Of a stretch of 64,000 bases of DNA, positions 1 through 20,772 are shown in pieces. The stretch is from the NCBI GenBank assembly GCA_036660635.1, contig JAVXAF010000001.1, forward strand, positions 17,857-81,856. Direction: 5' to 3'. A program made the position numbers and the translations under genes. The notes beneath the pieces were generated by a model. That model had not been told where the DNA came from. It worked only from the letters and a program-made list of their open reading frames with translations, and made no database searches. Every line of letters begins with the position of its first letter. Within the stretch, counting starts at the first letter, position 1. This stretch comes from Clostridia bacterium. Its GTDB lineage: Bacteria > Bacillota > Clostridia > TANB77 > CAG-465.

Positions 1-965
1 ATCATAAAGATAATGTTTTCTCTTATTTACCATGTATACCTGAGTGGGTAAAGCATCTTAATAATCTTAGTGTTGTTCAAGAAGCAACTTATGGTGCAAC
101 TCTATCAAAGCATATACAGCATTGTTTTAGTGTAGATATACCCTATCATATTTCTTGTAAGCATTCACTTTTTATTCCGGTAATTGCACTAGAGAGAACC
201 TCATTAATTCTTTTAAACTTAAAAAAGTTACAAGATGATGGTAAACTTAACAAAGCTATTCCAATTTATCTAGATGGAAATTTAGCAATAACTTATTTTA
301 ATAAGTTTAAAAAGTATACAAGCGTAGATTTTATACCTGAAAATTTAATTATAGTTAATAAAGATATTAGAAAAGATGTTATCTTAGACAAACGGCAAAA
401 AATTATACTTTCTACATCAGGTATGGCAGATCATGGACCAGCACAAATATATTTAAAAGAGTTTATTGGAAGAAAAGACTTTTCAATATATTTTACTAGC
501 TATACAGCTGAGGGTACTCTTGGTAGAGAATTAATGTACTCTAACATTGATGATGAGGTGAAAATTGACAATATAAAATTCATCAGGAAATGTACTATAT
601 CAGCAACCCAAGAGTTTTCTTCACATGCAAAAGCTGATGAGCTAAAAGATTTTTTAACTCAATTTGAAAATATCTCTTGTCTACTAATAAATCATGGTGA
701 AATTTGGCAAAAGCAAATCTATTCTAAATATATTGCAAATAGCTTAAAAATAAAAAGCATTAAAATATTAGATAGAAGTACTTTTGTTAGAATTGATAGT
801 TATGGGTTTGTAAAATCATTTCCATCAAAATTTATTAGTGTCCAAGAGCAGCAAAAATTATCAGAAAGTATGAAAAAGCATTCTACAGTGCATAAAACAA
901 AAAAAGAAAAATTAAAACAACAAAAAACAAAAAAAAGATTTCCAGTTCATGCTTATAACTACTAA
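1..965 (+). CDS. 3' part (5'-truncated by window edge) of a beta-CASP family metallo-beta-lactamase-fold nuclease (RNase J / CPSF-like, RMMBL C-terminal region)
   Basis: Frame 3 is open from position 3 with no stop and joins the listed ORF at 423..965. Beta-CASP motifs are present: STSGMADHG, YTAEGTLGRELM, SSHAKADEL (motif B) and LINHGE (motif C). Confidence 0.6.
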   Translation, partial: HKDNVFSYLPCIPEWVKHLNNLSVVQEATYGATLSKHIQHCFSVDIPYHISCKHSLFIPVIALERTSLILLNLKKLQDDGKLNKAIPIYLDGNLAITYFNKFKKYTSVDFIPENLIIVNKDIRKDVILDKRQKIILSTSGMADHGPAQIYLKEFIGRKDFSIYFTSYTAEGTLGRELMYSNIDDEVKIDNIKFIRKCTISATQEFSSHAKADELKDFLTQFENISCLLINHGEIWQKQIYSKYIANSLKIKSIKILDRSTFVRIDSYGFVKSFPSKFISVQEQQKLSESMKKHSTVHKTKKEKLKQQKTKKRFPVHAYNY

Positions 966-974
966 CAAACTATC

Positions 975-1020
975 AAAGCCAAGAGTTAATTCTCTTGGCT
1001 TTGATTTATTGTTTTTTGTT
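975..1020 (+). terminator. Rho-independent terminator of the beta-CASP nuclease gene
   Basis: Perfect hairpin aaagccaagag-ttaatt-ctcttggcttt followed by a T-rich run (gatttattgttttttg). Confidence 0.6.
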
Positions 1021-1051
1021 TAATTCATAATTATAGCATCATTTTACTTTA

Positions 1052-2062
1052 TTAAAACGGTGTATTATCTGGTGAAAATCCTTTATCATCTAAATAATAA
1101 AACTCTGTATTTTCATAGTCAAATAAATACATGTTACTTAATAATAATCCCGTTTTTCCATCATTATGTTGTACACCATATGCATCAGTATAACTATTAT
1201 TGAAACACCAAGCAATTTCTCCTTCTTTTATTTTATGATCTGGATCTGCTAATATATTAATATTATCGCCTTGTTTTCCTTTAACTATTCCTATTTCTAT
1301 TTTTTGATTTCTTCCTGAGTTTACAAAATAGTAGAGCGTAGTCAAATCTATAAGAGGAGTTATTACAGTTGGAACAGTTATTCTTTGTCCTTTAAACATA
1401 TCCTTAAATCCACAAATTTTTTCACCTGTATACTGATCAACACGTCCATAAATATCCTCTTCGCCAAATATATAATATTTATTTCCTTTTTGATCAACAA
1501 GATACGGATTATTATGCGGATCCTCTACAATATATTTTTTAAAAGATGCAGAGAAATATAGTTGATCTAGTTTCTCCATATATATTTTTAACTCTGCTTT
1601 AGACATTACATACTCATCAGGCAAAATCAAAGCCAAGTCAAAATCGACAGCATTAGAATATCCATATGCTTCTAGTACATCATTAAATATTTTATATGTT
1701 GTTTCTATATCAAGTTCATTTAGAGCATTTTTTCCATATATATCTTTAGCTATTTTATCTGCTAAGTTAATAAAGTTAAAATTTGAAATCATACCTTCAT
1801 TATTTGTAACTTTTTTTAACGTATTTCCTGTATCTTCTTTAAACCAAGTTGCAATTTTACTTTCTTTTTCAAGTTTCCAGTTTATCTCTAATAATTGTTC
1901 TTGTTCTTTTTCAGTAGCCGTGTTCCATTTTTTTACTGCATCATTTGCCTTTGATATTGGATTATTTTTTAAAAATGTAACTATTACAGCAGTGGCTAAA
2001 ACAATAATAACAATTATCGTTATTACTAAAACTATTAAAGATATTCCTCTTTTGTTTTTCAT
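1052..2062 (-). CDS. Pilin-like surface protein, paralog A (337 aa). N-terminus MKNKRG|ISLIVLVITIIVIIVLATAV is a class-III-signal-like anchor without Glu5.
   Basis: Long ORF. The internal ATG at 2062 is preceded by aaggag with 7-nt spacing, so the listed 28-aa N-terminal extension is rejected. The N-terminus is shared with the pilA-position gene at 19341..19742. It is a near-duplicate of 3900..4925. Confidence 0.7.
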   Translation of the reverse strand: MKNKRGISLIVLVITIIVIIVLATAVIVTFLKNNPISKANDAVKKWNTATEKEQEQLLEINWKLEKESKIATWFKEDTGNTLKKVTNNEGMISNFNFINLADKIAKDIYGKNALNELDIETTYKIFNDVLEAYGYSNAVDFDLALILPDEYVMSKAELKIYMEKLDQLYFSASFKKYIVEDPHNNPYLVDQKGNKYYIFGEEDIYGRVDQYTGEKICGFKDMFKGQRITVPTVITPLIDLTTLYYFVNSGRNQKIEIGIVKGKQGDNINILADPDHKIKEGEIAWCFNNSYTDAYGVQHNDGKTGLLLSNMYLFDYENTEFYYLDDKGFSPDNTPF

Positions 2063-2092
2063 ATATTTTCTCCTTACATATGTTATACAAAC

Positions 2093-2149
2093 TAGTTGCA
2101 TAAGTTTCACTTTATATAGTTTAATATATATATGAAAATTATGCAACTA
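2093..2149. promoter_or_regulatory. 11-bp perfect inverted repeat (tagttgcataa ... 35 nt ... ttatgcaacta) bracketing the predicted promoter of pilin-like paralog A
   Basis: Seen directly. On the minus strand one half-site overlaps a TTGCAT -35-like hexamer and the other lies in the 5' UTR. It is duplicated identically at 4957..5012. Confidence 0.5.
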
Positions 2150-2328
2150 TTTTTTTGTTAAAAATACTATATAGTTTTTAATTATCTTTTTATAGATTTT
2201 TAAATATTGTTAAAATAACTAACCAATCTAATTGTGGGGCAAGTGACAAAGCAATAATTACATTTACAACTATAATGTTAGTATTACTCTTATAAAATAA
2301 CAAGTTACATGTAGCATATTTTATAAAA

Positions 2329-2339
2329 TGTGATATAAT
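2329..2339 (+). promoter_or_regulatory. Extended -10 promoter (TGaTATAAT) for the PHP-domain gene
   Basis: tgtgatataat lies about 55 nt upstream of an RBS (gaaggag) and the ATG at 2393. Confidence 0.45.
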
Positions 2340-2392
2340 ATACATAATTTCAAAAAAATAATTTATATAATTAGTGAAGGAGAATAAAAATA

Positions 2393-3151
2393 ATGAAAAT
2401 CGATTTTCATACACATGGAAAATTATCAAGTAAGTTTCCTTTTGATAGAGAAGAGTTTATGAATAAAATAAATGAAGCCAAGAATGAAGGAATTGATAGT
2501 TTAGCATTAACAGAACATTGTCATGCAATTAATTTTATTGAAATATATAATTTTTTAGCAGATAATTATAAATATATTAATGATTATTATGATGTAGATG
2601 GCTTTAAAGTTTTTACAGGTACAGAAGTAACTACAAATGAGAAACTAGATATTCTCCTTATAGGAAACAGAGAATATATAGTAGAACTAAGTAAGAAAGT
2701 AGAAACTACAAAAGGAAACCAAAAATTTATAGATATAATCGATTTATTTAATATTTTAGATTGTACTAAATTAATAATAATACTTGCTCATCCACTTAGA
2801 AGACATACACTATTTCCTGATATTGATAAAAACATAATAAAAAAAATTGATGCTATAGAATTTAATGCTACAGATTTATATAATAATGGTGTAAGTAATA
2901 TGAAAAATAAAATTGTTGAATTAGGAAAATTATTAAATATTCCAATTACTGGTGGAAGTGATTCACACTACTTTACACAAATTGGTAGTATAAAAAATTG
3001 TTTTAATGTAGAATGTAATACTATTTGTGAGATAAAAGAACAAATTAAAAAGAAAAATTTTATAGTTGAAATATCAGATAATTTGGAGATTAGAGTTAAA
3101 AGTTCAATAATTATAAAAAAACTTATAAAATCATTAGAAATTAATAGTTAA
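2393..3151 (+). CDS. PHP-domain metal-dependent phosphoesterase (histidinol-phosphatase/CpsB-YwqE-like fold)
   Basis: N-terminal IDFHTHGKLS followed by LALTEHCH, with further AHP and GGSDSH motifs typical of PHP domains. Strong RBS gaaggag. Confidence 0.6.
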   Translation: MKIDFHTHGKLSSKFPFDREEFMNKINEAKNEGIDSLALTEHCHAINFIEIYNFLADNYKYINDYYDVDGFKVFTGTEVTTNEKLDILLIGNREYIVELSKKVETTKGNQKFIDIIDLFNILDCTKLIIILAHPLRRHTLFPDIDKNIIKKIDAIEFNATDLYNNGVSNMKNKIVELGKLLNIPITGGSDSHYFTQIGSIKNCFNVECNTICEIKEQIKKKNFIVEISDNLEIRVKSSIIIKKLIKSLEINS

Positions 3152-3225
3152 ATGTAGTATAAGTTACTTAATTTATTACGAAATAAAATTAATATAATTC
3201 GTGTTTTGCCAAAAAACTAAAAAAT

Positions 3226-3313
3226 AAACTAACAAAAAACAAAAGAGATTTATCAGCTCCTGTATATAACTACTACCAAGATATTAAAGCAAAGAGTTGA
3301 TTTTCTTGGCTTT
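3226..3313 (+). pseudogene. Decayed remnant of the 3' end of the beta-CASP gene plus a degenerate copy of its terminator (duplication scar)
   Basis: aacaaaaaacaaaagagatttatcagctcctgtatataactacta ... aaagcaaagagttgattttcttggctttt is about 75% identical to 917..1003. The hairpin arms now mismatch. Confidence 0.45.
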
Positions 3314-3329
3314 TGCTCATTAAAAAAGT

Positions 3330-3362
3330 AAAGCAACTCCAAATTAATGAAGTTGCTTTGAT
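3330..3362 (-). terminator. Terminator for the 135-aa membrane protein gene
   Basis: Hairpin aaagcaactccaaattaatgaagttgcttt, with a T-run following on the minus strand. Confidence 0.5.
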
Positions 3363-3363
3363 T

Positions 3364-3771
3364 TTATTTTTTTCTCTTTTGCTTTTGCTTTTTAATTACT
3401 TTAATATTATTTGTAAAAATAATTAAAAACATTACTGTTGCAATAGAAGATACTATTACAACTATAGCGCTTCCTAACCCTAATAATACCTGAGTGGAAT
3501 CATTAGCATTAGTTATGTATCTTTCAATAGCGTTTCCACTATTAATAAGATCATTTCGCTGTTTTTTAGCTTTTAAGAAAGCTTCTGAAACAGCTTTTTC
3601 GCCTTCTGGAGAATTTGCTACAAGTTCTCTTGTAGTATTAACATTAGCAGAAATGTGCCAAAGTTCATTTGCAGAACTGGCAATTTCCAAAGAAAAAATA
3701 ACGCTCGTAATACTTAAAACAATAAGCATTACATTAATAACCATTTTAATTTTGATTTTTACTGAAGTCAT
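3364..3771 (-). CDS. Hypothetical small membrane protein with N- and C-terminal TM helices (135 aa); present only in copy B of the duplicated module
   Basis: ORF with SD aagga 7 nt upstream of the ATG. Two hydrophobic helices flank a polar middle, and the C-terminus is K/R-rich. Confidence 0.45.
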   Translation of the reverse strand: MTSVKIKIKMVINVMLIVLSITSVIFSLEIASSANELWHISANVNTTRELVANSPEGEKAVSEAFLKAKKQRNDLINSGNAIERYITNANDSTQVLLGLGSAIVVIVSSIATVMFLIIFTNNIKVIKKQKQKRKK

Positions 3772-3847
3772 TATTAAAACATCCTTCTTAATTTATTTTA
3801 TAATAATTATACCACTTTTTCTATGTTATGTCAAGTCAGTTGAAAAA

Positions 3848-3890
3848 TCCTTTTAAAAAAAGAGCTTATAAAAGCTCTTTTTAATTTTTT
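3848..3890 (-). terminator. Hairpin terminator downstream of pilin-like paralog B
   Basis: aaagagcttataaaagctcttt flanked by A/T runs on both strands. Confidence 0.5.
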
Positions 3891-3899
3891 TTTACTTTA

Positions 3900-4925
3900 T
3901 TAAAATGGTGTATTATCTGGTGAAAAGCCTTTGTCATCTAAATAATAAAATTCTGTATTTTCATAGTCAAATAAATACATATTACCTAAAAAGAATCCCT
4001 TTTTCCCCTCATTATGTTCTACGCCATATTCATCAGTATAAATGTCATTAAAACACCAAACAATTTCTCCTTCTTGTATTTTATGCTCTGGATTTGCTAT
4101 TATATTAATATTATCACCTTTTTTTCCTTTAACTATTCCTATTTCTTTTTTTTGATCTCTTGCTGCTTTTACAAAAGCATTGAAAAAAGTCATATCTCCA
4201 AGAGGCTCTATTACAGTTGGCTTAGTTATTCTTTGTCCTTGAAATATATCCTTAAATCCAGAAGTTATTTGACCTGTATACTTATCAACACTTCCATAAA
4301 CATCATTTATACCACATATATAATATTTATTTCCTTTTTGATCAACAAGATAGTCAATAAGTGGATCTGTAGCAATCTCTCGACAAAAGAATACAGAACC
4401 CTCTAGTTGATATTGCCTATCCTCATATTCTTTCAAATCTTTTTCAGGTATAGTATTACCAGGGGTATACTTATTAGGTAACTCCATATCAGCCCACAAC
4501 TCGTCAACATTAGAATATCCATATGCTTCTACTACATTATTAAGTATTTTATATGTTGTTTTTATATCAAGTTCATTTAGAGCTTTTTTTTCATATATAT
4601 CTGTAGCTATTTTAGTTGCTAAGTTAGTAAAGTTAAAATCTGAAATTTTATTATTATTACTATTTATAACTTTTTTTAACGTATCCCCTATAACTGGATC
4701 TTCAAACCAAGTTGCAATTTTACTTTCTTTTTCAAATTTCCAGTTTATTTCTAATAATTGTTCTTGTTCTTTTTCAGTAGCCGTGTTCCATTTTTTTACT
4801 GCCTCATTTGCCTTTGATATTGGATTATTTTTTAAAAATGTAACTATTACAGCAGTGGCTAAAACAATAATAACAATTATCGTTATTACTAAAACTATTA
4901 AAGATATTCCTCTTTTGTTTTTCAT
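3900..4925 (-). CDS. Pilin-like surface protein, paralog B (342 aa)
   Basis: The first ~100 aa and last ~26 aa are identical to paralog A, while the central region is about 60% identical. The upstream ~110 bp promoter/UTR is identical. Confidence 0.7.
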   Translation of the reverse strand: MKNKRGISLIVLVITIIVIIVLATAVIVTFLKNNPISKANEAVKKWNTATEKEQEQLLEINWKFEKESKIATWFEDPVIGDTLKKVINSNNNKISDFNFTNLATKIATDIYEKKALNELDIKTTYKILNNVVEAYGYSNVDELWADMELPNKYTPGNTIPEKDLKEYEDRQYQLEGSVFFCREIATDPLIDYLVDQKGNKYYICGINDVYGSVDKYTGQITSGFKDIFQGQRITKPTVIEPLGDMTFFNAFVKAARDQKKEIGIVKGKKGDNINIIANPEHKIQEGEIVWCFNDIYTDEYGVEHNEGKKGFFLGNMYLFDYENTEFYYLDDKGFSPDNTPF

Positions 4926-4956
4926 ATATTTTCTCCTTACATATGTTATACAAACT

Positions 4957-5012
4957 AGTTGCATAAGTTTCACTTTATATAGTTTAATATATATATGAAA
5001 ATTATGCAACTA
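4957..5012. promoter_or_regulatory. Second copy of the 11-bp inverted repeat bracketing the pilin-like promoter
   Basis: tagttgcataa ... ttatgcaacta, identical to 2093..2149. Confidence 0.5.
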
Positions 5013-5029
5013 TTTTTTTGTTAAAAAAG

Positions 5030-5054
5030 AAAAAACACGTAAATACGTGTTTTA
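5030..5054 (-). terminator. rpmA terminator
   Basis: Hairpin aaaacacgtaaatacgtgtttt followed by a T-run on the minus strand. Confidence 0.6.
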
Positions 5055-5060
5055 AAAATG

Positions 5061-5324
5061 TTATTTTTCTTCTACTGGATAAACGCTAACTTTTTTATCG
5101 CTTTTACCCTTTCTTTCAAATTTTACAATACCATGAACTAAAGAAAATAAAGTATCATCTTTTCCAATACCTACATTAGTGCCTGGATGTATTTTTGTTC
5201 CTCTTTGTCTATATAATATATTTCCTGCTAAAACAAACTGACCATCAGCTCTTTTAGCTCCTAATCTTTTTGATTCACTGTCTCTACCATTTCTAGTAGA
5301 ACCCATACCTTTTTTATGTGCCAC
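5061..5324 (-). CDS. rpmA: 50S ribosomal protein L27 (GTG start, N-terminus MAHKKG with no Prp-cleaved propeptide)
   Basis: [30 protein letters not shown]...FERKGK is canonical L27. SD aaaggagtg lies 7 nt before the GTG, and a TAA stop sits immediately upstream in frame. Confidence 0.95.
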
Positions 5325-5369
5325 TTAAATTCACTCCTTTTTAATCAATTTTATTTAGAAAACTTTATC

Positions 5370-5729
5370 TTAAGCTTCTTCTATTTTTTCTGTTTCAACT
5401 TTTTTAGCTTTTGTTGCTGTAGATATTTTTTCAATTTGTATTTTTGTATATGGCTGTCTATGTCCTCTTGTTTTTCTTTCATTTTTTTTAGCTTTGTATT
5501 TATATACAATAACTTTTTTTTCTTTTCCGTGTCCAATTATAGTAGCACTTATTTTAGCACCTTTAATAGTATCTTCACCAATAGTAACTTTTTTACCATC
5601 AGATATGAATAATACTTGATCAAAAGTAATTGTTTTTCCTTCTTGTGCTTCTTCAATTCTGTCTACAAAAACAATGTCTCCTTCTTGTACTTTATACTGT
5701 TTTCCACTAATTTCAACTATTGCGTACAT
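5370..5729 (-). CDS. rplU: 50S ribosomal protein L21
   Basis: MYAIVEISGKQYKVQEGDIV... Confidence 0.9.
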   Translation of the reverse strand: MYAIVEISGKQYKVQEGDIVFVDRIEEAQEGKTITFDQVLFISDGKKVTIGEDTIKGAKISATIIGHGKEKKVIVYKYKAKKNERKTRGHRQPYTKIQIEKISTATKAKKVETEKIEEA

Positions 5730-6537: not shown

Positions 6538-9036
6538 TTGATAGAAAATTTATTTAATAAATTACATATAAAGACTAAGCCAGATAAAATACTTACTTAT
6601 ATACTATATACCACACTTGCAATAGTTTGCTTTTTTGCAGTTAGTAAAATACTTATATTTATACTTGGAGATTCAAGGCTTACTAAAGCAGTTTCACCAT
6701 ATATAATTTCATTGCTATTTTTAATACCTTATTTGGCTTATTCGTTTTTTGTGAATTCAGGAATTCCAAAAAATGATATGGATAGATTAAAAATGTATAT
6801 TTTTTCATATACAGGCTTAATAATTATACTTTATTATTTGATTTGTAATTGGACAAGTACTGCTGCGTGGTTATTAATAGAAAAAATACCAAATTATACT
6901 GCTGTAATAAAAATGTATCCTCAGTTATTTGCACCAGCTATAAAATCTATTGGAATATTATTTCCTTTTATACTTACATTCCAAGTAGCTGATTATTTTC
7001 TATTTATATTAAGAGATGATGATTATTCTAAAGCAATTGCTGGTTATACAGGACTATCTCTTGTAAAATCTACTAAAGATAAAGGTCCTTTTTCTTGTGA
7101 AACTGTAATTTGTACAGAAAAAGGAACATCTCTTCCTGTTATTGTTCCAGAGAGTAAGCGTTACGAAGCCACTCTTGTTCAAGGTGCTACTGGTACTGGT
7201 AAAACTGCAACTGTTCTTTTACCAATGAGTGCTCTAGATTTGGAGAGAAAATTTTTCTTTAGAGAATTTTCTAAAAAAATCGGATATTCAATGCTAAAAA
7301 AAGGAATCGCATATATGACTGGTCCTTTTAATAATGAATATGTAAATAAAACTTTCACTCTAAACTATTTAAAACCTAGACGTGGAATGGAAGAGCAATT
7401 TTTAAATTGCGTTAAGCCTATGGTTCAATATATTGATAATTCTAGTGGTAAAATAACATATAGAGATATTGGTATAACAGTAATTGAAAATGATGGTGAC
7501 TTTATTTCTAAGTTTATTGGTGTTGCTAATAATTTTGGTATTGATATTTTATCTATTGATCCTGCCGCACCAGAGACTACCCTTAGTATAAATCCATTTG
7601 CAATTCCAGATCCAGCAAAAGTTGCTTCAATTGTTGCCGATGTTTTAAATGCAATGTATGAGAGCACAGGTGGTGGAAAAGCTGGCGATCCATTCTTTAC
7701 TCAAGTAACAATAGATGCGTTCCAAAACTTATCTATACTTCTTAAAGAAATGTTTCCATTGTTGCATAATGGTGAGATTGCTAGTTTAGAAGATATGTTA
7801 GAACTACTTTACAATTTTGATGCTGTTGAAGAAATGACAGAAGAAATGAAGAAAGTTCCAGAATTAGAACAAAAATATAAACTATTAATTAGATACTTTG
7901 AGAAAAATTTCTATAAACCTTCTTTAAATATTAACGGATATGAAATCCCTGGTACTCGTGGTAGTGGTAGAAAAGATACTGAAAAATTTTTATATGGTGC
8001 TATTACTCAACTTAATAACCTAGTTAGACACCCAGGTCTAAAAGCTGCTCTTTGTGGTAAAACTAACATAATCGATTTTGATAAAGCTCTTGATAATGGA
8101 AATATTATTACTGCTTGTTCTAGAAAAGGTGAACTTGGTATTATTCAATCTAAAGCATTTGGTATGTTTTTCATATTGCAATTCCAAGATGCAGTACTTA
8201 GAAGAAAAGGTAATGAAAATTCTAGAACTCCTCATTTTCTATATATTGATGAATTTCCAGAATATATAACAAAAGATATGGAAGTTTTATTTACACTATT
8301 TAGAAAGTATAGATGTGGTGTTACAATAGCAATACAAAACTTATCTCAACTTGAAAAAAGTGGAAAAGATTATTATAGACAAGTTGTACTTGCAAATACA
8401 AAAACACAAATTGTATTTGGTGATACCGTACCAGAAGATAGTGAATACTGGGAAAAAGCTTTTGGAAAAGAGAAAAAGCCAGATGAAACTAATACTTTTG
8501 ATTTAACTGATGGTCAAATGACTAAAAAAACAACTATTAAGATGGAGAAAAAATTAAGAGCAGAATGGTTTAAAGTAGCTGAACAAGGATTTGGAGCTGT
8601 CTTTTTCAAAACGAAAAATTCCTATGGTAAAACTATATTTGGTCAAGGTAAAACATCTTTCTTAGATGGTAAATATATGGAAAAATCTGATTTGTTAATG
8701 TTTAACTTTGAAAAATATATGATGAGCAAACCAGATGAACCTACAATAACAATTAATGATAGTGACAAAGATAGTGACTCTGATAAACTATTTGGCGTAA
8801 ATACTTCTAGCAGATTAAATGAAGAATTAAATAACATTTCTTCAAAAAAAGAACCACCTGTGGCAAATGACGAAACATTTGTAAACACAGTACCAACTAA
8901 TACAATGCCAGATACAAATATAGATGACTTTGAAATTATATTCGATGATGAGCCAAACTTAGAAGATGCAAATGTAGATGGCGGTGCAATTACAGAAACA
9001 TATGAAACCTCAGCAATTAAAAGAAATAAAAAATAA
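6538..9036 (+). CDS. Membrane-anchored P-loop ATPase of the VirD4/TraG/TraD (type IV coupling protein-like) family; 4 predicted N-terminal TM helices, acidic C-terminal tail
   Basis: Walker A TLVQGATGTGKTATVLLPM, Walker B-like FLYIDEFPEY, and a hydrophobic N-terminal ~170 aa. TTG start. No relaxase, VirB4 or other T4SS genes nearby. Confidence 0.6.
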   Translation: MIENLFNKLHIKTKPDKILTYILYTTLAIVCFFAVSKILIFILGDSRLTKAVSPYIISLLFLIPYLAYSFFVNSGIPKNDMDRLKMYIFSYTGLIIILYYLICNWTSTAAWLLIEKIPNYTAVIKMYPQLFAPAIKSIGILFPFILTFQVADYFLFILRDDDYSKAIAGYTGLSLVKSTKDKGPFSCETVICTEKGTSLPVIVPESKRYEATLVQGATGTGKTATVLLPMSALDLERKFFFREFSKKIGYSMLKKGIAYMTGPFNNEYVNKTFTLNYLKPRRGMEEQFLNCVKPMVQYIDNSSGKITYRDIGITVIENDGDFISKFIGVANNFGIDILSIDPAAPETTLSINPFAIPDPAKVASIVADVLNAMYESTGGGKAGDPFFTQVTIDAFQNLSILLKEMFPLLHNGEIASLEDMLELLYNFDAVEEMTEEMKKVPELEQKYKLLIRYFEKNFYKPSLNINGYEIPGTRGSGRKDTEKFLYGAITQLNNLVRHPGLKAALCGKTNIIDFDKALDNGNIITACSRKGELGIIQSKAFGMFFILQFQDAVLRRKGNENSRTPHFLYIDEFPEYITKDMEVLFTLFRKYRCGVTIAIQNLSQLEKSGKDYYRQVVLANTKTQIVFGDTVPEDSEYWEKAFGKEKKPDETNTFDLTDGQMTKKTTIKMEKKLRAEWFKVAEQGFGAVFFKTKNSYGKTIFGQGKTSFLDGKYMEKSDLLMFNFEKYMMSKPDEPTITINDSDKDSDSDKLFGVNTSSRLNEELNNISSKKEPPVANDETFVNTVPTNTMPDTNIDDFEIIFDDEPNLEDANVDGGAITETYETSAIKRNKK

Positions 9037-13539: not shown

Positions 13540-14871
13540 TTAAGGAATTTGTATAAATGATCCCATATATACATTGATAAGTGGTACCATTACAGTAATC
13601 ATAAAGAATATAAGTGCAATACCAACAAAAATATATGTTATATCTGGAAGCCACTTAACAAATTTAGCAATAGACTCATCTATTTCCATTACAATATATT
13701 CATTTACTTTTTCCATCATCTCGGCAAGATCTGTTTTCATTCCTATATCAATCATTTCTGTAACCATTGGTTTAAATAGCTTTTTTTCTTCAAATGGTAT
13801 CATCCAAGATCCACCTGATAAAGCGTTAACTTTACCTGCTTCAATTACAGATAAGAAATAGTAATTTTTAGTTACATTTTTTGAAATATCTAAACTTTCT
13901 TGTATTCTCATACCATTTTTTAAATTAAGCAACATAGCTTGAAAAAATTTACTAATTGTTATATTAATATTTAATGGTCCTATAACCGGTATTTTCATAA
14001 TAAGTCTATCAAAATTATATTTTCCTTTTGGTGTATTAATATATGCAAAAAATCCTAAAACTAATAAACCTATTGCTGCTACAACAAAATACCAATTTGC
14101 TACAAACCACTTTGCAATATTTAGACCAATCATAGTTGCAGCTGGTATTTTTTCATTAGAGTCAAACATATCATATACTGATTGTAAAAGTGGAACACCA
14201 ATAATAAGCGCTGCAAACATTGCGATTATAATTCCAAAAAATTGTAACAGTCTTGGAATTACTGCAGATGTAATTTTTTTTCTTAATTTTGTAGATGATT
14301 CTACATAATCTCTTGCGTAAAGTAATGCTGTATCTAGAGTTCCAGACTCTTCACCAACTTTTACGAAGTTTATATACATAGTTGGAAATACTCTGGGATA
14401 ATTTTCCATTACAGCGTACATTCTCTCACCTGATTGAACACCAATTAGTATATCCTCAATTACATTTTTAAAATATTTGTTTTCAGTACCATCATGCACA
14501 GCTTCTAAGGCTTGAATATTATTAAATTTAGCTTTTTTCAATATATATATATTATTTGAAAATATTATTAAATCTTTTGCGCTTACATAATTTATAAATG
14601 TAATCCCATTTTTTGCTAAATCTTTAAATTTCAGATTTTTAAAATTAATTTTACCACTTTCTTTAACTCTTTGCTTTTTGTCTTCTTTTATTAATTTTTC
14701 ATAATCTAGTCTTTTATATTTCTTTTTATTATCTTTCATTTTTTCTACAAAAATTGGTTGAGTGCCATCTTTTTTTAAACTATCAATGGCTAGTGACTTA
14801 TTTAATGCCATGATTCTTCCTCTACCTAATTTTCCATCTTGATATATAACTCTATATTTGTAACTTGGCAA
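13540..14871 (-). CDS. pilC: Type IV pilus assembly platform protein PilC (GspF family, two GspF repeats)
   Basis: 443-aa polytopic protein with the architecture and location typical of PilC/GspF. Confidence 0.85.
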   Translation of the reverse strand: MPSYKYRVIYQDGKLGRGRIMALNKSLAIDSLKKDGTQPIFVEKMKDNKKKYKRLDYEKLIKEDKKQRVKESGKINFKNLKFKDLAKNGITFINYVSAKDLIIFSNNIYILKKAKFNNIQALEAVHDGTENKYFKNVIEDILIGVQSGERMYAVMENYPRVFPTMYINFVKVGEESGTLDTALLYARDYVESSTKLRKKITSAVIPRLLQFFGIIIAMFAALIIGVPLLQSVYDMFDSNEKIPAATMIGLNIAKWFVANWYFVVAAIGLLVLGFFAYINTPKGKYNFDRLIMKIPVIGPLNINITISKFFQAMLLNLKNGMRIQESLDISKNVTKNYYFLSVIEAGKVNALSGGSWMIPFEEKKLFKPMVTEMIDIGMKTDLAEMMEKVNEYIVMEIDESIAKFVKWLPDITYIFVGIALIFFMITVMVPLINVYMGSFIQIP

Positions 14872-14891
14872 TTAAATCGCACCTCCTTTTA

Positions 14892-15992
14892 CTAGTCTGA
14901 TAAAGATCCACCCTCGCCTATTATAATACTTTTAATTATTTGAAATCTATCCGGATCTACATTAGCTTTTACTGTAGCTATATCTATAAGTCCTTTTAAA
15001 TATAAATCTGCAAATGAGTTTTCAAAGCTTAAACATCCCTTTTCTCTTTGACTATGAATAGTATCTTCTATATCTGAGACGTTAAACTTTTCTTGTCTCA
15101 TTTGAGCAGCTATTGTATTATTTACTAACATAACTTCTGGAACCATTAAAAGTTCACCTTTTGTGCTAACAACTAATTTTTGTGAAACTACCATTTTTAA
15201 CACTGAAGACACTGCATTTTTTATAGTTTGTTGATCTGAAGGAGAATACATACTTATTATTCTTTCTACTGTCTCACCACAAGAACGTGTATGTAATGTT
15301 CCAATAACAAGGCCACCTGACTCTGCAAGATCAATAGCAACATCCATAGTTTCTTTGTCTCTTATCTCTCCTAAAACAGCTATATCTGCGTCTTCTCTTA
15401 GTAGATTTATTAATCCATCATGGAAACTTACAACATCAGACTCAGCACCAATTTCTTTTTGTATAATTATTGATTTATCTGATACATGCTCATACTCAAC
15501 TGGATCTTCCAAAGTTACTATTTTTTTATTACTTTCTCTGTTTACCTCTTGAACAAATCCATTCATAGTTGTTGATTTACCAGAGTTTACTTTACCAGTA
15601 ACAAGTATAAGGCCATTTGAAATACTTTTCATTCTTTCAATTATTTGTCTAAGTCCCATACTATTTACATCAATATCTCCATTAGGTATTACCCTCATTG
15701 AAAATGTAGGTAGACCCTTAGTAAGTGATATGTTTATTCTAAATCTATGCTCAGAATATGTATATGAAAAGTCAATTTGTTTTTTTATTTTAAAGTTAGA
15801 ACTTAAGGCTGGAAACCTCTTATAGAAAAAGTTTAATATTTCTTCTAGTGAGATATCTGAGAGTGCAAGTCTAGTCTGATCAAAAAACAACTTTTTTTTC
15901 ACTCTAAAAACTGGAGTTTGTCCTGGTGCCAAATGAATATCTGTAGCTCCTAAACTTATTCCTTTATCAAGTATTGAATGTAATAGTTCCAT
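14892..15992 (-). CDS. pilT: Type IV pilus retraction ATPase PilT
   Basis: LVTGKVNSGKSTTM Walker A, GEIRD, and a ~366-aa PilT-size secretion ATPase. Confidence 0.85.
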   Translation of the reverse strand: MELLHSILDKGISLGATDIHLAPGQTPVFRVKKKLFFDQTRLALSDISLEEILNFFYKRFPALSSNFKIKKQIDFSYTYSEHRFRINISLTKGLPTFSMRVIPNGDIDVNSMGLRQIIERMKSISNGLILVTGKVNSGKSTTMNGFVQEVNRESNKKIVTLEDPVEYEHVSDKSIIIQKEIGAESDVVSFHDGLINLLREDADIAVLGEIRDKETMDVAIDLAESGGLVIGTLHTRSCGETVERIISMYSPSDQQTIKNAVSSVLKMVVSQKLVVSTKGELLMVPEVMLVNNTIAAQMRQEKFNVSDIEDTIHSQREKGCLSFENSFADLYLKGLIDIATVKANVDPDRFQIIKSIIIGEGGSLSD

Positions 15993-16033
15993 ATTTTTTC
16001 CCCTTATTTTAATTATATATTATTTTTATCATA

Positions 16034-17671
16034 TTATATTGTTATTTTTCTTTTTAATTCTGGTATTGTAGTAACACCACTTAATACTTTTTTTACACCA
16101 TCTACTACAAGTGGTTTGTATTCTGTATTTTTAATTGCATATTCTTTTAGCTCCAAATTAGGTTTTCCATCTGCTATCATATCTTTCATATAGTCATCTA
16201 TACAAAGTATCTCAAACACGCCTATTCTCTCGTAATATCCTATATCATTGCAATATTTACATCCAACTGGTTCAAATGGATGAGAATTTTTAATGTCAAA
16301 CTCAGTTCCTGTAAGCTTAGTTACTTTATCAATATACTTTAGTTCTTCTTCTGTAAAATCATGAGGTTTTTTACATTTGTCACATAATCTTCTTACAAGC
16401 CTTTGTGATATTGTAGTAACAACACTAGACGATACATCGTAGCTTGATACTCCCATTTTTCTCATTCTTGTTATTGCTTCAATTGCATCAATTGTATGTA
16501 GAGTAGATAATACTAAGTGACCAGTTTGACCTGCTTCTACAGCTGTTTTTGCTGTTTCTTCGTCTCTTATCTCACCTACTAGTATAATATCTGGATCTTG
16601 TCTTAGAACTGTTCTAAGAGCTGATGCAAATGTTATATTAGGGCCTATTTCAACTTGGTTAATACCTGGTATTCTACGTTCAACTGGATTCTCAATTGAA
16701 ATAATATTTATTGATGGCTTGTCTAAGTACTCAAGCACGCTATACAAAGTTGTAGTTTTACCCTCACCTGTTGGAGCACATACTATAATCATACTGTTTC
16801 TTTTATCAAATGCTCTTTCAACAAGCTCGGAATCTTTTTCAAAACCAAGTTCAAATAAATCTCTTGCTTCTGCATTTTTTCTTAAAAGTCTTAATACAAA
16901 TTTTTCTCCAAAAACATTTTTTTGAGTAGATACACGAATACTAAAATTATCATATGTATCAATACTTCCATCTTGATCATATGCAATTTCTTGATGCATA
17001 TTTGATATTGATTTTAACCTTCCTGTTATGATTTCTTGTCTATTTTTAGGAAGTTCAGTTATTGGTATTAGTTCTCCATCAATTCTATATCTTATCCTTA
17101 TTTTTGTATCCATTGGTTCTACATGTATATCTGATGCTCTTTTATCAATTGCGGTCATTATTATATTATCAATAAGCTTAGAAATATCTTTTTCTTCTTT
17201 ATTTACAAATCCTGATTCAACAGTTTTAATACTAGAAATTTGTTTCATTATAGAAGTATATAGAGTTGCATATATTTCCATATTAAATCCTTGATTCATA
17301 AGTAAAAGTTCTATTTCTTTTACTTTACTTGCATTTTGTGGATCTGCAAATGCAACTTTTAGCGTATTTCCATCTAGAGCAAAAGGGAAAGCTTTATAGT
17401 TTATTATTATATCTCTTGGAAGATATTGAACTGGATTTATTTCAACATCATCTTGTAAAAGTGTTGAATTAATTTGTATTTTAAATGAAAGTACTTCAAG
17501 TAACTGCTCTTTATCACACATATCTAATATATCAACAATTTCACCAAACTTCAAATCTTTGTGCTCTTTTTGATATTCAAGAACTCTATCTACTTGACTT
17601 TCACTTAAAAGTCCCCTTTTTATAAACTCAATGCCAATTGGTGTTTTTCTAGATTTAACATTTTCAAACAT
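16034..17671 (-). CDS. pilB: Type IV pilus assembly ATPase PilB (GspE family)
   Basis: VCAPTGEGKTTTLYS, VGEIRDEETA, and the CxxC...CxxC zinc motif of GspE-type ATPases. Confidence 0.9.
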   Translation of the reverse strand: MFENVKSRKTPIGIEFIKRGLLSESQVDRVLEYQKEHKDLKFGEIVDILDMCDKEQLLEVLSFKIQINSTLLQDDVEINPVQYLPRDIIINYKAFPFALDGNTLKVAFADPQNASKVKEIELLLMNQGFNMEIYATLYTSIMKQISSIKTVESGFVNKEEKDISKLIDNIIMTAIDKRASDIHVEPMDTKIRIRYRIDGELIPITELPKNRQEIITGRLKSISNMHQEIAYDQDGSIDTYDNFSIRVSTQKNVFGEKFVLRLLRKNAEARDLFELGFEKDSELVERAFDKRNSMIIVCAPTGEGKTTTLYSVLEYLDKPSINIISIENPVERRIPGINQVEIGPNITFASALRTVLRQDPDIILVGEIRDEETAKTAVEAGQTGHLVLSTLHTIDAIEAITRMRKMGVSSYDVSSSVVTTISQRLVRRLCDKCKKPHDFTEEELKYIDKVTKLTGTEFDIKNSHPFEPVGCKYCNDIGYYERIGVFEILCIDDYMKDMIADGKPNLELKEYAIKNTEYKPLVVDGVKKVLSGVTTIPELKRKITI

Positions 17672-17683
17672 ATAACTTCCTCC

Positions 17684-17905
17684 TTACCTATTTTCATTTA
17701 TTTTAATTATTGTTTTTTCATAAAATCCATTTATATCTTCTACTGATTTACTATATTTTTCTACTATGTTTTTTTCATATTTATTAGTTAGTATGTCAAA
17801 ATGTTCTTGCTCAGAAAAAGTTGACATTGCATATATGGAAAAAGTAACAGAAGTTAAAATAACCAATAATACTCCTGAGCCTTTTAATCTATTTTTTTTA
17901 CTCAT
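17684..17905 (-). CDS. Small pilin-like protein (73 aa; KGSG|VLLVI N-terminus)
   Basis: Short ORF overlapping the upstream gene by 8 nt. Basic residues, then Gly, then a hydrophobic helix. Confidence 0.4.
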   Translation of the reverse strand: MSKKNRLKGSGVLLVILTSVTFSIYAMSTFSEQEHFDILTNKYEKNIVEKYSKSVEDINGFYEKTIIKINENR

Positions 17906-18377
17906 TTAATTCATCTCCTAGTGCAAAGAAAAACTCACAACTTTTTTCTTCCTTATATTTTAAAAACTTGATTTTTGTTGCAAAACTCTTAGATGCACTA
18001 TCTATTTTTGCTAAAGTTTCAGCATTAATTGAAGTAAGATTAGAAGGTAAAATATCAAATTTACACTCTTCTACTGACTTTACTAATACGCCACCATTTT
18101 TAAAAATAGTTTTTTTTGTACTATCATATGTATATATATCATTATTTGAAAAAGTGATTTTATCTGCTGTTGTCTCTACCCACTGACTTGACTTTGCACT
18201 ACTTAATAGATTTACTTGTAGTTTATCTCTTTGCTCATTAATGTATATATTTCCCTTCTCAGTCATAATTTTATAATTCATATTAGCACTCATTGCAACT
18301 GCAAAAGTAGTAAACAAAAAGAATAACACAACATACAAAACTATTGAAACCATTGTAAGACCAGAAGCTTTTTTCAT
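17898..18377 (-). CDS. Minor pilin-like protein (159 aa; KKASG|LTMVS)
   Basis: Class-III-like N-terminus without Glu5, located in the pilus operon. Confidence 0.5.
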   Translation of the reverse strand: MKKASGLTMVSIVLYVVLFFLFTTFAVAMSANMNYKIMTEKGNIYINEQRDKLQVNLLSSAKSSQWVETTADKITFSNNDIYTYDSTKKTIFKNGGVLVKSVEECKFDILPSNLTSINAETLAKIDSASKSFATKIKFLKYKEEKSCEFFFALGDELNE

Positions 18378-18380
18378 ATG

Positions 18381-19178
18381 TTACACCTTCCCTTTTAAAG
18401 TATCTAAACTAAATTCTTTTGGTTTACCATCTACCATATACTCTACCTTAACATTTACTTTTTTTACAATATCTTCTTTTGACAAATCCTCATCACAATA
18501 TTTTGAAACACTAGTGCTTACCATATAAGTTATATTATCCATTTTTTCTGATGTGGTAGACGAATCCAGTAAATCATACTTTGTTGCAAGTGACACTTCA
18601 ATATTTTTTGTAGCTATCGCAATAGCATTGCTCTTAGCAATGTTTATTATAGACTTCTTTTGATAATTTAAACTCATAATATATGAAGATACTAAAAAAA
18701 GTGTAAACATTATCATAGCTACAACAAGCTCAGATAAAAATACTCCGCTCTTTTTACTTAGTTTTTTTTTATTTAGTTCTACTTTTTCTTCTTCACTCAT
18801 TTTAGATTTCATAATTAAAGATCCTGCTATAGTAAATATAACAGCATATACAAGGCATACAACAAGCAAAGTAAAAGTATAACCAAATATAAAATATAGC
18901 AAAACAAATACTATACCATTAGAAAGCTCTAAAAGTATATATCTAGGACTTATTTGAGAACCACAATACTTGCATTTTCCTCCTCTTATAACAAAACTTA
19001 AAATTGGAATTAAATCGAAAAATCCAAGTCTATGTTTACAACTTGTACAATATGATCTCGTAGCCACTATGTCCTGATGTCTTGGAAGTCTATAGGTAGC
19101 AAGTGAGAAGAAACTTCCAAATAAAGTACCAATTACAAATATACAAAATACAACAAATATATTTAAAAATACTAACAC
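18381..19178 (-). CDS. Fusion ORF: PilD N-terminal domain (TM1, 4-Cys loop, TM2-3; no A24 peptidase catalytic domain) fused in frame to a canonical pilin domain (KKSG|VFLSE)
   Basis: The first ~120 aa match the prepilin peptidase N-terminus (CTSCKHRL...GGKCKYCGSQISPRYILLEL). Then come MKSKMSEEEK...KKSGVFLSELVVAMIMFTLF and a soluble pilin-like C-terminus. No other ORF of 60 aa or more in this interval could supply the peptidase domain. Confidence 0.6.
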   Translation of the reverse strand: MLVFLNIFVVFCIFVIGTLFGSFFSLATYRLPRHQDIVATRSYCTSCKHRLGFFDLIPILSFVIRGGKCKYCGSQISPRYILLELSNGIVFVLLYFIFGYTFTLLVVCLVYAVIFTIAGSLIMKSKMSEEEKVELNKKKLSKKSGVFLSELVVAMIMFTLFLVSSYIMSLNYQKKSIINIAKSNAIAIATKNIEVSLATKYDLLDSSTTSEKMDNITYMVSTSVSKYCDEDLSKEDIVKKVNVKVEYMVDGKPKEFSLDTLKGKV

Positions 19179-19189
19179 TAGCTCACCTC

Positions 19190-19260
19190 CATGAATAATA
19201 TTTACATTTTACAATATACTTAAGTATACTCTAAAATATATATATAGTGGTTAGACCATA
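19190..19260 (-). terminator. Possible attenuator/terminator hairpin downstream of the major pilin gene
   Basis: gaccatatacacagcagagtatatatggcc stem, flanked by A/T-rich sequence. Confidence 0.3.
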
Positions 19261-19340
19261 TACACAGCAGAGTATATATGGCCTTTCCATTTAATCGTAT
19301 TTTAAAATTTTAATTTATTTAATTACTACACTCTAGTAGT

Positions 19341-19742: not shown

Positions 19743-19818
19743 AAAAGCTCCTCCTTATAAAAATATATTTATCAAAACAATTATCTTATTTTAATTGACA
19801 AATTGTTTTAACCTAAAG

Positions 19819-20325: not shown

Positions 20326-20337
20326 ATGTCTTCCCCC

Positions 20338-20745: not shown

Positions 20746-20772
20746 ATTTCAACTTCATCTCCTTTTTATATA

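What the first reader, a model, noticed from the sequence alone, without database searches (positions are those of the whole stretch)
915..5030. Tandem duplicated module encoding two diversified pilin-like surface proteins with identical termini and identical promoters
Two ~340-aa proteins, encoded at 1052..2062 and 3900..4925, are 100% identical over the first ~100 aa (anchor plus proximal domain) and the last ~26 aa (..MYLFDYENTEFYYLDDKGFSPDNTPF). Their central ~200 aa are only about 60% identical and contain several indels. The ~110 bp upstream promoter/5' UTR is base-for-base identical between the copies. Homogenised ends with a divergent core is the pattern expected for gene conversion or diversifying selection on a surface-exposed variable domain, for example antigenic or receptor-binding variation. 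Copy B additionally carries a 135-aa two-TM membrane protein gene that copy A lacks. The module lies in an accessory-looking segment next to rpmA.
Basis: seen in the sequence. Interest (0 to 1): 0.75.

Follow-up and report, generated by a model that had tools for sequence, protein, structure and literature searches.

The report
Duplicated pilin-like surface protein genes
Two neighbouring genes in an uncultured gut Clostridia genome encode surface proteins that share a pilin-like anchor with the cell's own pilus subunit; their front ends were recently copied onto each other while their outer domains drifted apart, which is normal gene-family evolution in a large, undescribed family.

Summary
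Two minus-strand genes (1052..2062, 336 aa; 3900..4925, 341 aa) share a 102-nt identical upstream block and near-identical first 74 codons (2 substitutions, not "100% over ~100 aa"). The core is 61% identical with indels, and the last 26 residues are identical.

The two ends have different causes. The 5' block has almost no silent change (1/148 silent sites vs 28/165 elsewhere, p=1e-7), which indicates recent gene conversion. The C-terminal tail carries 4 synonymous differences and is conserved in distant homologues, which indicates purifying selection. Core dN/dS is 1.3-2.0 but not significantly above 1.

The N-terminus (MKNKRG|ISLIVLVITIIV...) is 74% identical to that of the 133-aa candidate major pilin (assigned by size and position) in a type IV pilus operon in the same window. 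It lacks Glu5 and hits no pilin signature.

The same leader heads ≥100 genes in gut Clostridia MAGs, with varied C-terminal domains and frequent neighbouring copies; the closest pairs show the same mosaic. The globular domain here has only three other homologue clusters (one an allelic pair) and no fold match.

Best reading: paralogous modular pilin-like display proteins. Ordinary evolution in an undescribed family.

The parts
898..1002 (.). 3' flank of copy A: the last ~68 nt of the convergent beta-CASP gene (423..965, +) plus a bidirectional terminator hairpin (972-1005). It is duplicated at 3210-3313.
   Evidence: blastn gives 80% identity over 106 nt. Terminator scan. Beta-CASP/RMMBL Pfam hits.
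1052..2062 (-). Copy A: a 336-aa pilin-like protein. It has leader MKNKRG, a hydrophobic helix, an amphipathic helix to about residue 73, and an orphan globular domain.
   Evidence: ORF and translation. It equals NCBI MEG2645417.1, a hypothetical protein. No family hit.
2063..2164 (-). Upstream block of copy A, identical to 4926-5027. It contains the RBS AAGGAG and a 57-nt inverted repeat/hairpin (2093-2149, TAGTTGCATAA...TTATGCAACTA).
   Evidence: Identity over 102 nt. RNA fold -26.3 kcal/mol, z = -5.3. The inverted repeat is unique to the two copies.
2393..3151 (+). PHP-domain protein gene (252 aa) lying between the copies. It is not duplicated.
   Evidence: Pfam PHP_C/PHP and NCBIfam PHP domain hits. 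It is absent from the repeat pairs.
3210..3313 (.). Relic copy of the beta-CASP 3' end and terminator region. It marks the distal end of duplicated unit B.
   Evidence: blastn against 898-1002 gives 80% identity.
3364..3771 (-). 135-aa ORFan with two hydrophobic segments, inside a 576-nt stretch (3314-3889) that corresponds to only 39 nt beside copy A. It has its own consensus promoter at 3834..3806 (TTGACA-17-TATAAT, TG-extended).
   Evidence: ORF. Promoter 12/12 match. The only homologue among 5.8e9 clusters is itself. No family hit.
3857..3882 (.). Terminator-like hairpin directly after the stop codon of copy B. It separates copy B from the 135-aa gene.
   Evidence: Terminator scan.
3900..4925 (-). 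Copy B: a 341-aa pilin-like protein, paralogue of copy A (71% aa identity overall).
   Evidence: ORF and alignment. AF2 model with pLDDT 72: helix 4-73, linker, helical subdomain 96-186, beta-rich C-terminus.
4926..5027 (-). Upstream block of copy B, identical to 2063-2164 and carrying the same hairpin (4956-5012). It starts 4 nt after the rpmA terminator (5053-5032).
   Evidence: In MAG GCA_036657795.1 this block differs at 3 positions.
19341..19742 (-). 133-aa candidate major pilin of the type IV pilus operon (assigned from its size, N-terminus and position in the operon). Its N-terminus is MKANKKG|ISLIVLVITIIVIIIL, the same leader and anchor type as A and B.
   Evidence: Motif scan. BLASTP gives 74% identity over 42 aa. 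DNA is 74% identical over 137 nt.
13540..23141 (-). Type IV pilus gene cluster: PilC-like (13540-14871), PilT-like (14892-15992), PilB-like (16034-17671), pilin-like ORFs, an A24_N-only 'prepilin peptidase' (18381-19178) and a 544-aa protein with a weak PilN hit (21507-23141). The PilT and PilB labels come from size and domain make-up; both hit the same T2SSE family.
   Evidence: Pfam T2SSF, T2SSE x2, MshEN, A24_N_bact, PilN.

Best explanation
Copies A and B are paralogous members of a lineage-specific family of modular, type-IV-pilin-like surface proteins.

Each has a non-canonical class-III-type leader and anchor (MKNKRG|ISLIVLVITIIVIIVL..., no Glu5) of the same type as the cell's own candidate major pilin. 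This is followed by a long helix, a linker and an orphan ~250-aa globular domain ending in a conserved ...Y..D.G......PF tail.

Inferred mechanism: the leader targets the protein to the membrane. There it is either processed and presented on or by the type IV pilus encoded 9-18 kb away, or retained as an N-terminally anchored protein. Either way the globular domain is displayed outside the cell as a binding module.

Evolutionary history, as shown by the sequence:
- A ~1.2-kb unit (relic of the neighbour's 3' end and terminator, the gene, and 102 nt upstream) was duplicated into the gap between rpmA and a PHP gene.
- Silent divergence since then is about 0.2-0.4.
- The 5' 325 nt (upstream block plus codons 1-74) were later homogenised by gene conversion.
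- The exposed core accumulated mostly amino-acid-changing substitutions and indels (dN/dS 1.3-2).
- The C-terminal tail stayed fixed by purifying selection.

Both copies keep an intact identical upstream block, RBS and ORF. Both are therefore probably expressed, giving two display variants rather than one expressed gene plus a silent cassette.
For: Duplication extents and flank relic.

Mosaic divergence and its significance. The 5' dS is 0.02. The core dS is 0.14-0.18 overall (0.10-0.51 by segment) with ω 1.3-2.0. The tail has dN 0 and dS ~0.3. Fisher p is about 1e-7.

The leader is shared with the operon's candidate major pilin, and PilB/PilT/PilC-type genes plus a weak PilN hit are in the window.

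The leader family is large and modular. About 400 proteins hit only residues 1-70 and carry FGE-sulfatase, LRR, dockerin or GH18 domains. There are 167 confirmed stretches in GTDB genomes (80 kept, 77 loci), all labelled as Clostridia/Clostridium gut bacteria. In the 77 loci there are 104 genes of 56-923 aa, and 22 loci hold ≥2 genes. Pfam finds BspA-LRR in 16 of 98, GLUG in 4, and nothing in most. JGI annotates some members as PilE/PulG.

The same pattern of a conserved 5' end and a diverged body occurs in other neighbouring pairs. In L080 the upstream, 5' and remaining identities are 94%, 99% and 66%. L076 gives 96/94/71, L079 gives 61/94/71 and L027 gives 61/93/67.

The C-terminal motif is conserved in all five globular-domain homologues. 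The orthologues P0002 and P0003 vary most in the same central patch (ω 1.14, against 0.10 at the N-terminus).

The arrangement is confirmed by independent contigs.

The concept of modular pilins comes from Raynaud et al. 2021, PMC8179133.
Against: - No pilin signature is met. There is no PF07963/TIGR02532 hit at E≤1, Ile rather than Phe/Met at +1, and Val rather than Glu at +5.
- The 'prepilin peptidase' in the operon has only the A24 N-terminal domain. No catalytic domain or G.GD.K motif is found in the window, so cleavage is unproven.
- The AF2 models are only moderate (pLDDT 69-72 from 5 sequences). They do not show a classical pilin alpha-beta roll.
- Ten or more such genes per genome is many for true pilus subunits.
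- dN/dS >1 is not significant (p=0.08). It was computed on a single pair in a 27% GC genome.
- The promoter itself was not located by the consensus scan.
- The exact promoter identity could partly reflect assembly consensus in a repeat.
Confidence: 0.6

Rival explanations
1. A and B are plain N-terminally signal-anchored (type II membrane) surface proteins. The GISLIVL segment is an uncleaved transmembrane anchor typical of this lineage. The proteins are never processed by a prepilin peptidase or incorporated into a pilus. The duplication and conversion history is the same as in the best explanation.
For: - No Glu5 and no pilin HMM hit.
- The operon's A24 homologue lacks the protease domain, and this is conserved in >120 homologues.
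- There are ten or more paralogues per genome with very diverse cargo.
- The predicted 70-residue helix is followed by a linker rather than a pilin fold.
Against: - The candidate major pilin gene inside a PilB/PilT/PilC-type operon carries the same leader, including the invariant Gly.
- G-I-S-L-I-V-L is invariant across 98 members. That is more constraint than a generic transmembrane anchor needs.
- A peptidase could be encoded outside the 64-kb window.
Confidence: 0.27
2. The pair is an antigenic-variation system of the Neisseria pilE/pilS type. One copy is the expression locus and the other a donor cassette, and programmed gene conversion shuffles the variable core.
For: - Conserved ends flank a variable core, with evidence of gene conversion.
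- The near-identical strain differs at three positions within the converted block.
Against: - Both copies have complete, identical upstream blocks, RBS, start codons and intact ORFs.
- The converted tract is the conserved 5' end, not the variable core.
- Only two copies exist in the 64-kb window, with no further core cassettes.
- Homologues in relatives are single-copy.
Confidence: 0.05
3. The identical 5' blocks are an assembly artefact: repeat collapse or consensus in a short-read MAG. The real copies would be uniformly diverged.
For: - The window comes from a MAG (RSA08).
- Other assemblies break exactly at this repeat.
- Another MAG shows 3 differences in B's upstream block.
Against: - Even with those 3 differences the 5' block would be about 98% identical, against 79% for the core.
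- Contig 4 of the other MAG independently reads through the shared block, and its product is 100% identical to B residues 1-113.
- The same mosaic is seen in several unrelated MAGs.
Confidence: 0.05

Closest known systems
Modular type IV pilins (e.g. Streptococcus sanguinis PilB/PilC; Raynaud et al. 2021, PMC8179133)
   Same: An N-terminal pilin-type leader and hydrophobic helix acts as a carrier, with an unrelated bulky module grafted C-terminally for display. There are many architectures, and the cargo is often a binding domain (LRR, lectin-like). T4P machinery is encoded in the genome.
   Different: - The defining IPR012902/PF07963 motif and Glu5 are absent.
- No separate small pilin alpha-beta module is discernible before the cargo.
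- The cargo of A and B is an orphan domain.
- The family is expanded to ten or more genes per genome, often in tandem.
- Incorporation into pili is untested.
Archaeal class III signal-peptide proteins outside pili (Sulfolobus sugar-binding proteins / bindosome). Recalled from general knowledge, not tested here.
   Same: A pilin-type leader without Glu5 is used as a general export and anchoring device for many functionally diverse extracellular proteins.
   Different: That system is archaeal and uses a PibD peptidase with a dedicated Bas assembly system. Here the organism is a bacterium with PilB/PilT/PilC-type genes. The only trace is a weak BasB hit (E=0.026) on a neighbouring ORF.
Neisseria pilE/pilS antigenic variation
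   Same: Pilin-type genes with conserved and variable segments, and gene conversion between copies.
   Different: Here both copies are complete and have upstream blocks. The conversion homogenises the conserved 5' end rather than shuffling the variable core. There is no cassette array.
TANB77 'pilin-like proteins' of a conserved Tad/CpaF-type pilus cluster (Kim et al. 2024, PMC11680825)
   Same: Uncultured low-GC gut Clostridia with lineage-specific pilin-like proteins that standard signatures do not recognise. The link to this window's lineage is only a lead: Clostridium sp. CAG:465 carries the leader family, and its GTDB placement is recalled from memory.
   Different: That cluster has a CpaF-type ATPase and 143-236-aa pilins. 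The window has a PilB/PilT/PilC-type cluster, and A and B lie outside it.

Membership tests
Type IV pilins (class III signal peptide proteins) | Short, positively charged leader ending in Gly at -1 | tested here: met
   The leader is MKNKRG|I.... Gly6 is invariant in 98 family members.
Type IV pilins (class III signal peptide proteins) | A stretch of about 20 hydrophobic residues forming alpha1-N directly after the cleavage site | tested here: met
   ISLIVLVITIIVIIVLATAVIVTF (24 aa). It is predicted helical over residues 4-33.
Type IV pilins (class III signal peptide proteins) | Glu at +5 and Phe/Met at +1 (N-methylation site) | tested here: not met
   Position +1 is Ile and +5 is Val (G|I-S-L-I-V). 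The same holds for the operon's candidate major pilin.
Type IV pilins (class III signal peptide proteins) | Match to the PF07963 N_methyl / TIGR02532 signature | tested here: not met
   No such hit at E≤1. The only pilin-related hits are sub-threshold: PilA_Myxo at E 0.017-0.048 and GspG at E 0.1.
Type IV pilins (class III signal peptide proteins) | Cognate machinery in the genome (assembly ATPase, platform protein, prepilin peptidase) | tested here: inconclusive
   PilB-, PilT- and PilC-type genes and a weak PilN hit are present at 13540-23141. The A24 homologue has only the N-terminal domain and no catalytic domain. The rest of the genome was not available.
Type IV pilins (class III signal peptide proteins) | Cleavage by prepilin peptidase and polymerisation into filaments | not testable with these tools
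   This needs N-terminal mass spectrometry and pilus purification.
Modular pilins (Raynaud et al. 2021) | A complete pilin module linked by a short loop to an additional module | tested here: inconclusive
   The AF2 model (pLDDT 72) has a helix 4-73, a low-confidence linker 76-91, then a helical plus beta domain. No clear pilin beta-sheet packs on alpha1-C.
Modular pilins (Raynaud et al. 2021) | [quoted passage not shown] | tested here: inconclusive
pilE/pilS-type antigenic variation loci | Silent donor copies lacking promoter and 5' coding region | tested here: not met
   Both copies carry the identical 102-nt upstream block, RBS, ATG and full ORF.
pilE/pilS-type antigenic variation loci | Conversion tracts fall within the variable region | tested here: not met
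   The homogenised tract is the conserved 5' end (1840-2164). The variable core shows dS 0.14-0.18 overall and no long identical runs.

The most novel reading that the evidence does not exclude
In an uncultured clade of low-GC gut Clostridia, the invariant Glu5-less leader K-G|ISLIVLVITIIV could be a general display or secretion tag that depends on type-IV-filament machinery. It would be attached to dozens of different cargo domains per genome (LRR, GLUG, FGE-sulfatase-like, dockerin, GH18 and orphan domains such as those of A and B). Its DNA would be kept uniform among paralogues by recurrent gene conversion while cargo domains diversify. Processing would be unusual, because the conserved 'PilD' of these operons is an A24 N-domain fused to a canonical pilin and has no aspartyl-protease domain. 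That would be a bacterial counterpart of the archaeal bindosome-type use of pilin signals.
Probability: 0.2. Interest if true: 0.7.

Novelty: new variant of a known kind. Interest (0 to 1): 0.4.

Why it matters
The pair itself is a textbook example of duplication, partial gene conversion and divergence of an exposed domain, so it is of modest interest.

What it points to is more useful. A large surface-protein family carries a pilin-like but signature-negative leader in uncultured gut Clostridia. Its members are currently annotated as hypothetical proteins and are missed by surveys based on IPR012902.

If these proteins are displayed by type IV filaments, they would define much of the adhesive and antigenic surface of this clade. 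The recurrent 5' homogenisation would show how a shared export module is maintained across a diversifying family.

The repeats also explain why short-read assemblies of these genomes fragment at such genes.

Tried and rejected
- **Family searches.** Pfam, NCBIfam and PHROGs scans of A, B and the 135-aa ORF gave nothing above threshold.
- **PDB sequence search.** A profile of the globular domain against PDB sequences gave 0 hits at E≤10.
- **AFDB search.** The afdb50 library was unavailable.
- **Searches for more globular-domain homologues.** GTDB genomes and JGI metagenomes gave none. An HMMER scan of 1.84e9 representatives found only P0001 (= copy A), P0121 (= copy B fragment), P0002 and P0122; P0003, is the orthologue of P0002.
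- **Exact look-up of full-length A and B.** Not on record, although A is in NCBI as MEG2645417.1.
- **Promoter scan.** No sigma-70 match of ≥9/12 was found inside the 102-nt block. The best hand-read candidate is TTGCAT-17-TAAACT (8/12).
- **Invertible-promoter idea** for the 11-bp inverted repeat. Rejected because the arms are only 35 nt apart and form a simple hairpin.
- **Phage or mobile-element origin.** There are no PHROG hits, and the flanks are housekeeping genes (rpmA, rplU, pth, secA, obg side).
- **Resemblance of the C-terminal tail (FYYLDDKG) to cell-wall/choline-binding repeats.** This was recalled from memory. No PF01473-type hit appeared at E≤1, so it is not claimed.
- **Literature search for the leader motif.** No papers.

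Full report
**What is in the sequence**

The window has 27% GC. The two genes lie on the minus strand. Copy A is 1052..2062 (336 aa) and copy B is 3900..4925 (341 aa).

Directly upstream of each ATG, 102 nt are identical (2063-2164 = 4926-5027). Identity stops abruptly at 2164/2165.

A codon alignment shows the following:
- Residues 1-74 differ at only two positions (98.2% nt identity).
- Columns 76-318 are 61% aa and 79% nt identical, with four indels.
- The last 26 residues are identical in protein. Four synonymous nucleotide differences fall within the last 24 codons.

The overall pattern is right.

**Extent of the duplication**

blastn of the modules against the window pairs 1042-2164 with 3890-5027 at 85.7% identity. 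It also pairs 898-1002 with 3210-3313 at 80%.

The 898-1002 segment is the 3' end of the convergent beta-CASP gene plus its bidirectional terminator. The duplicated unit was therefore [neighbour's 3' end and terminator][gene][102 nt upstream].

The copies are not strictly tandem. A PHP-domain gene (2393..3151, +) lies between them and is not duplicated.

Beside copy B, a 576-nt stretch (3314-3889) replaces 39 nt at copy A. It holds a 135-aa ORF with two hydrophobic segments. A terminator hairpin (3857-3882) follows copy B's stop codon. A perfect TG-extended TTGACA-17-TATAAT promoter (3834..3806) precedes the 135-aa ORF. The ORF is therefore a separate transcription unit. It is also an ORFan, since its only database hit is itself.

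**Is the arrangement real?**

The window belongs to a 106-kb contig of MAG "Clostridia bacterium RSA08". Copy A is MEG2645417.1 and the 135-aa protein is MEG2645419.1.

Three independent pieces support the arrangement:
- In a near-identical MAG (GCA_036657795.1), contig 12 matches window 1-1844 and ends where the shared block begins.
- In the same MAG, contig 4 runs from the rpmA side through the shared block into B-specific sequence down to 4585.
- A Logan contig covers 2126-4345 at 100% identity.

In that MAG, B's upstream block differs from the window at 5013, 4967 and 4929, while only one other difference occurs in 3.3 kb. Differences between strains are thus concentrated in the repeat. 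That fits ongoing conversion, but it could also be assembly noise.

**Why the ends are conserved: two different reasons**

*The 5' end.* Silent change in the 5' block is 1 in about 148 sites (102 non-coding plus 45.5 synonymous). Across the rest of the gene it is 28 in 165 synonymous sites (Fisher p=1.4e-7). Upstream non-coding DNA is 0/102 diverged, against 21/106 for downstream non-coding DNA (p=3.4e-7). The longest exact run is 224 nt. Purifying selection on protein cannot erase synonymous and non-coding differences. The 5' 325 nt were therefore homogenised recently, by gene conversion.

*The C-terminal end.* The tail has dN=0 but dS of about 0.3. Its motif (N.Y...D.....[FI].Y..D.G......PF-COOH) is conserved in homologues only 26-36% identical. 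This is purifying selection, not conversion.

*The core.* Nei-Gojobori dN/dS is 1.3-2.0 depending on kappa (segments 2.1, 0.9, 2.9 and 0.6), but it is not significantly above 1 (binomial p=0.08). Two orthologues from another species (P0002 and P0003) have ω=0.10 at the N-terminus and ω=1.14 in a central patch (aa 131-175). That patch aligns with the most variable, indel-rich part of A and B. The data fit relaxed or diversifying selection on an exposed region. They do not prove positive selection.

**What the proteins are**

There is no Pfam, NCBIfam or PHROG family for A or B.

The N-terminus is MKNKRG|ISLIVLVITIIVIIVLATAVIVTF. It has the form of a class III (prepilin) signal: a basic leader, a Gly, and a hydrophobic helix.

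The window contains a type IV pilus cluster at 13540-23141:
- T2SSF (PilC-like)
- two T2SSE ATPases, labelled PilT-like and PilB-like from size and domain make-up
- an A24_N protein
- a 544-aa protein with a weak PilN hit
- several small pilin-like ORFs

Its 133-aa candidate major pilin, assigned from size and position, begins MKANKKG|ISLIVLVITIIVIIIL. That is 74% identical to A and B over 42 aa and 74% identical at the DNA level.

The canonical pilin features are missing, however. Position +1 is Ile and +5 is Val (no Glu5). The N_methyl/TIGR02532 signature does not hit A, B or any pilin-like ORF of the operon.

**The wider family**

About 400 proteins match only residues 1-70 of A. They carry unrelated C-terminal domains, including FGE-sulfatase, BspA-LRR, dockerin and GH18. 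Some are annotated by JGI as PilE or PulG.

In GTDB species representatives, the pattern K[RK]GISLIVL gave 167 confirmed stretches, of which 80 (77 loci) were kept. All kept loci are labelled as Clostridia/Clostridium gut bacteria (mostly "Clostridia bacterium" MAGs, plus Clostridium sp. CAG:465), with about ten or more loci in several genomes.

In the 77 loci I found 104 such genes of 56-923 aa, and 22 loci hold two or three. G-I-S-L-I-V-L is invariant in 98 aligned members. Pfam recognises LRR_5 in 16 and GLUG in 4; most of the rest have no recognised domain.

The closest neighbouring pairs in other genomes show the same mosaic as A and B:

| Locus | Upstream identity | First 180 nt | Rest of gene |
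|---|---|---|---|
| L080 | 94% | 99% | 66% |
| L076 | 96% | 94% | 71% |
| L079 | 61% | 94% | 71% |
| L027 | 61% | 93% | 67% |

**The globular domain of A and B**

The domain is very narrowly distributed. In 1.84 billion representatives, only P0001 (= A), P0121 (= a B fragment), P0002 and P0122 match it; P0003, found, is the orthologue of P0002. None is found in GTDB representatives or JGI metagenomes. In the relatives the gene is single-copy and sits in different housekeeping contexts.

**Upstream block**

The identical 102 nt contain AAGGAG 8 nt before the ATG. They also contain a 57-nt inverted repeat (TAGTTGCATAA-35 nt-TTATGCAACTA) that folds at -26.3 kcal/mol (z=-5.3) and occurs only at these two places in the window.

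No ≥9/12 sigma-70 match lies inside the block. The role of the hairpin is open; it could be a 5'-UTR stabiliser or an operator.

**Context**

The surrounding genes are core chromosome of a spore-former: rpmA, rplU, pth, secA, spoIIIA operon, gpr, spoIIP, spoVAD, recA, topA, pcrA and ddl. Beyond the window start lie a class I tRNA synthetase and obg.

The segment [B, 135-aa ORF, PHP, A, beta-CASP, tRNA synthetase] therefore sits between rpmA and obg. These two genes are commonly adjacent (general knowledge). This fits a small variable island in a conserved neighbourhood.

**Verdict**

The finding is real and explained. It is a duplicated pair from a large, unrecognised family of pilin-like display proteins.

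- Shown: the duplication, conversion of the 5' end, purifying selection on the tail, and fast amino-acid divergence of the core.
- Inferred: pilus-dependent display.
- Main rival: simple N-terminal membrane anchoring. It is strengthened by the missing Glu5 and by the protease-less "PilD".

The closest known concept is the modular pilin (PMC8179133), but membership of the type IV pilin family fails two defining tests. I found no paper mentioning this leader.

Noticed in passing
window 18381..19178 (-): The ORF annotated in NCBI as 'prepilin peptidase' (265 aa) has only the A24 N-terminal Cys-rich domain (PF06750, aa 15-97) and no aspartyl-protease domain. Its C-terminal half starts with an invariant canonical class III motif K.G|VFxxE (G145, E150), followed by a ~110-aa globular part. 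It therefore looks like an A24-N::pilin fusion. More than 120 homologues (50-70% identity, full coverage) share the architecture, so it is not a frameshift.
   Followed up: partly
L080 5992-10458; L076 8119-11358; L079 76-4446; L027 5986-7807: Tandem pairs of GISLIVL-leader genes in other gut Clostridia MAGs show the same mosaic as A and B. The first 180 nt are 93-99% identical (the upstream 100 nt 94-96% in two pairs), but the rest of the gene is only 66-71% identical. This suggests recurrent 5' homogenisation across the family.
   Followed up: partly
L001 1-30, L002 ~35-65, L003 1-26: An (AC)13-14 dinucleotide microsatellite lies inside a tiny ORF (MKKLHTHTHT...) just upstream of the P0002/P0003 orthologues. 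Two of the four Logan contigs (L001, L003) break at the repeat and the other two (L002, L004) end within about 40-60 nt of it. It may be a phase-variable tract or merely an assembly breakpoint.
   Followed up: no
window 5061..5729 (-): rplU and rpmA are adjacent, with no Prp (ysxB) protease gene between them. L27 starts MAHKKG with no N-terminal extension. From general knowledge, this is unusual for a genome labelled Clostridia. The island carrying A and B separates rpmA from obg.
   Followed up: no
window 6538..9036 (+): A lone 832-aa VirD4/TraG-like coupling-protein homologue (T4SS-DNA_transf, TraG-D_C) with N-terminal membrane segments lies between pth and secA. No other conjugation genes are nearby.
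   Followed up: no
window 423..965 (+) and L005 880-2421: The neighbouring 513-aa metallo-beta-lactamase/beta-CASP protein also hits the Anti-Pycsar Apyc1 family (precomputed) and, weakly, Cas14 (type VII CRISPR-associated MBL/beta-CASP protein). It is probably an RNase J/CPSF-like enzyme. Its 3' end was co-duplicated with the pilin-like gene.
   Followed up: no
window 17898..18377, 19819..20325, 20338..20745 (-): The small ORFs of the pilus operon have N-terminal hydrophobic segments that differ from the GISLIVL leader (MKKASG|LTMVS..., MKKNSIIITIL..., MKKTFAITFSM...). None hits a pilin signature. The whole system seems to use non-canonical pilins.
   Followed up: no
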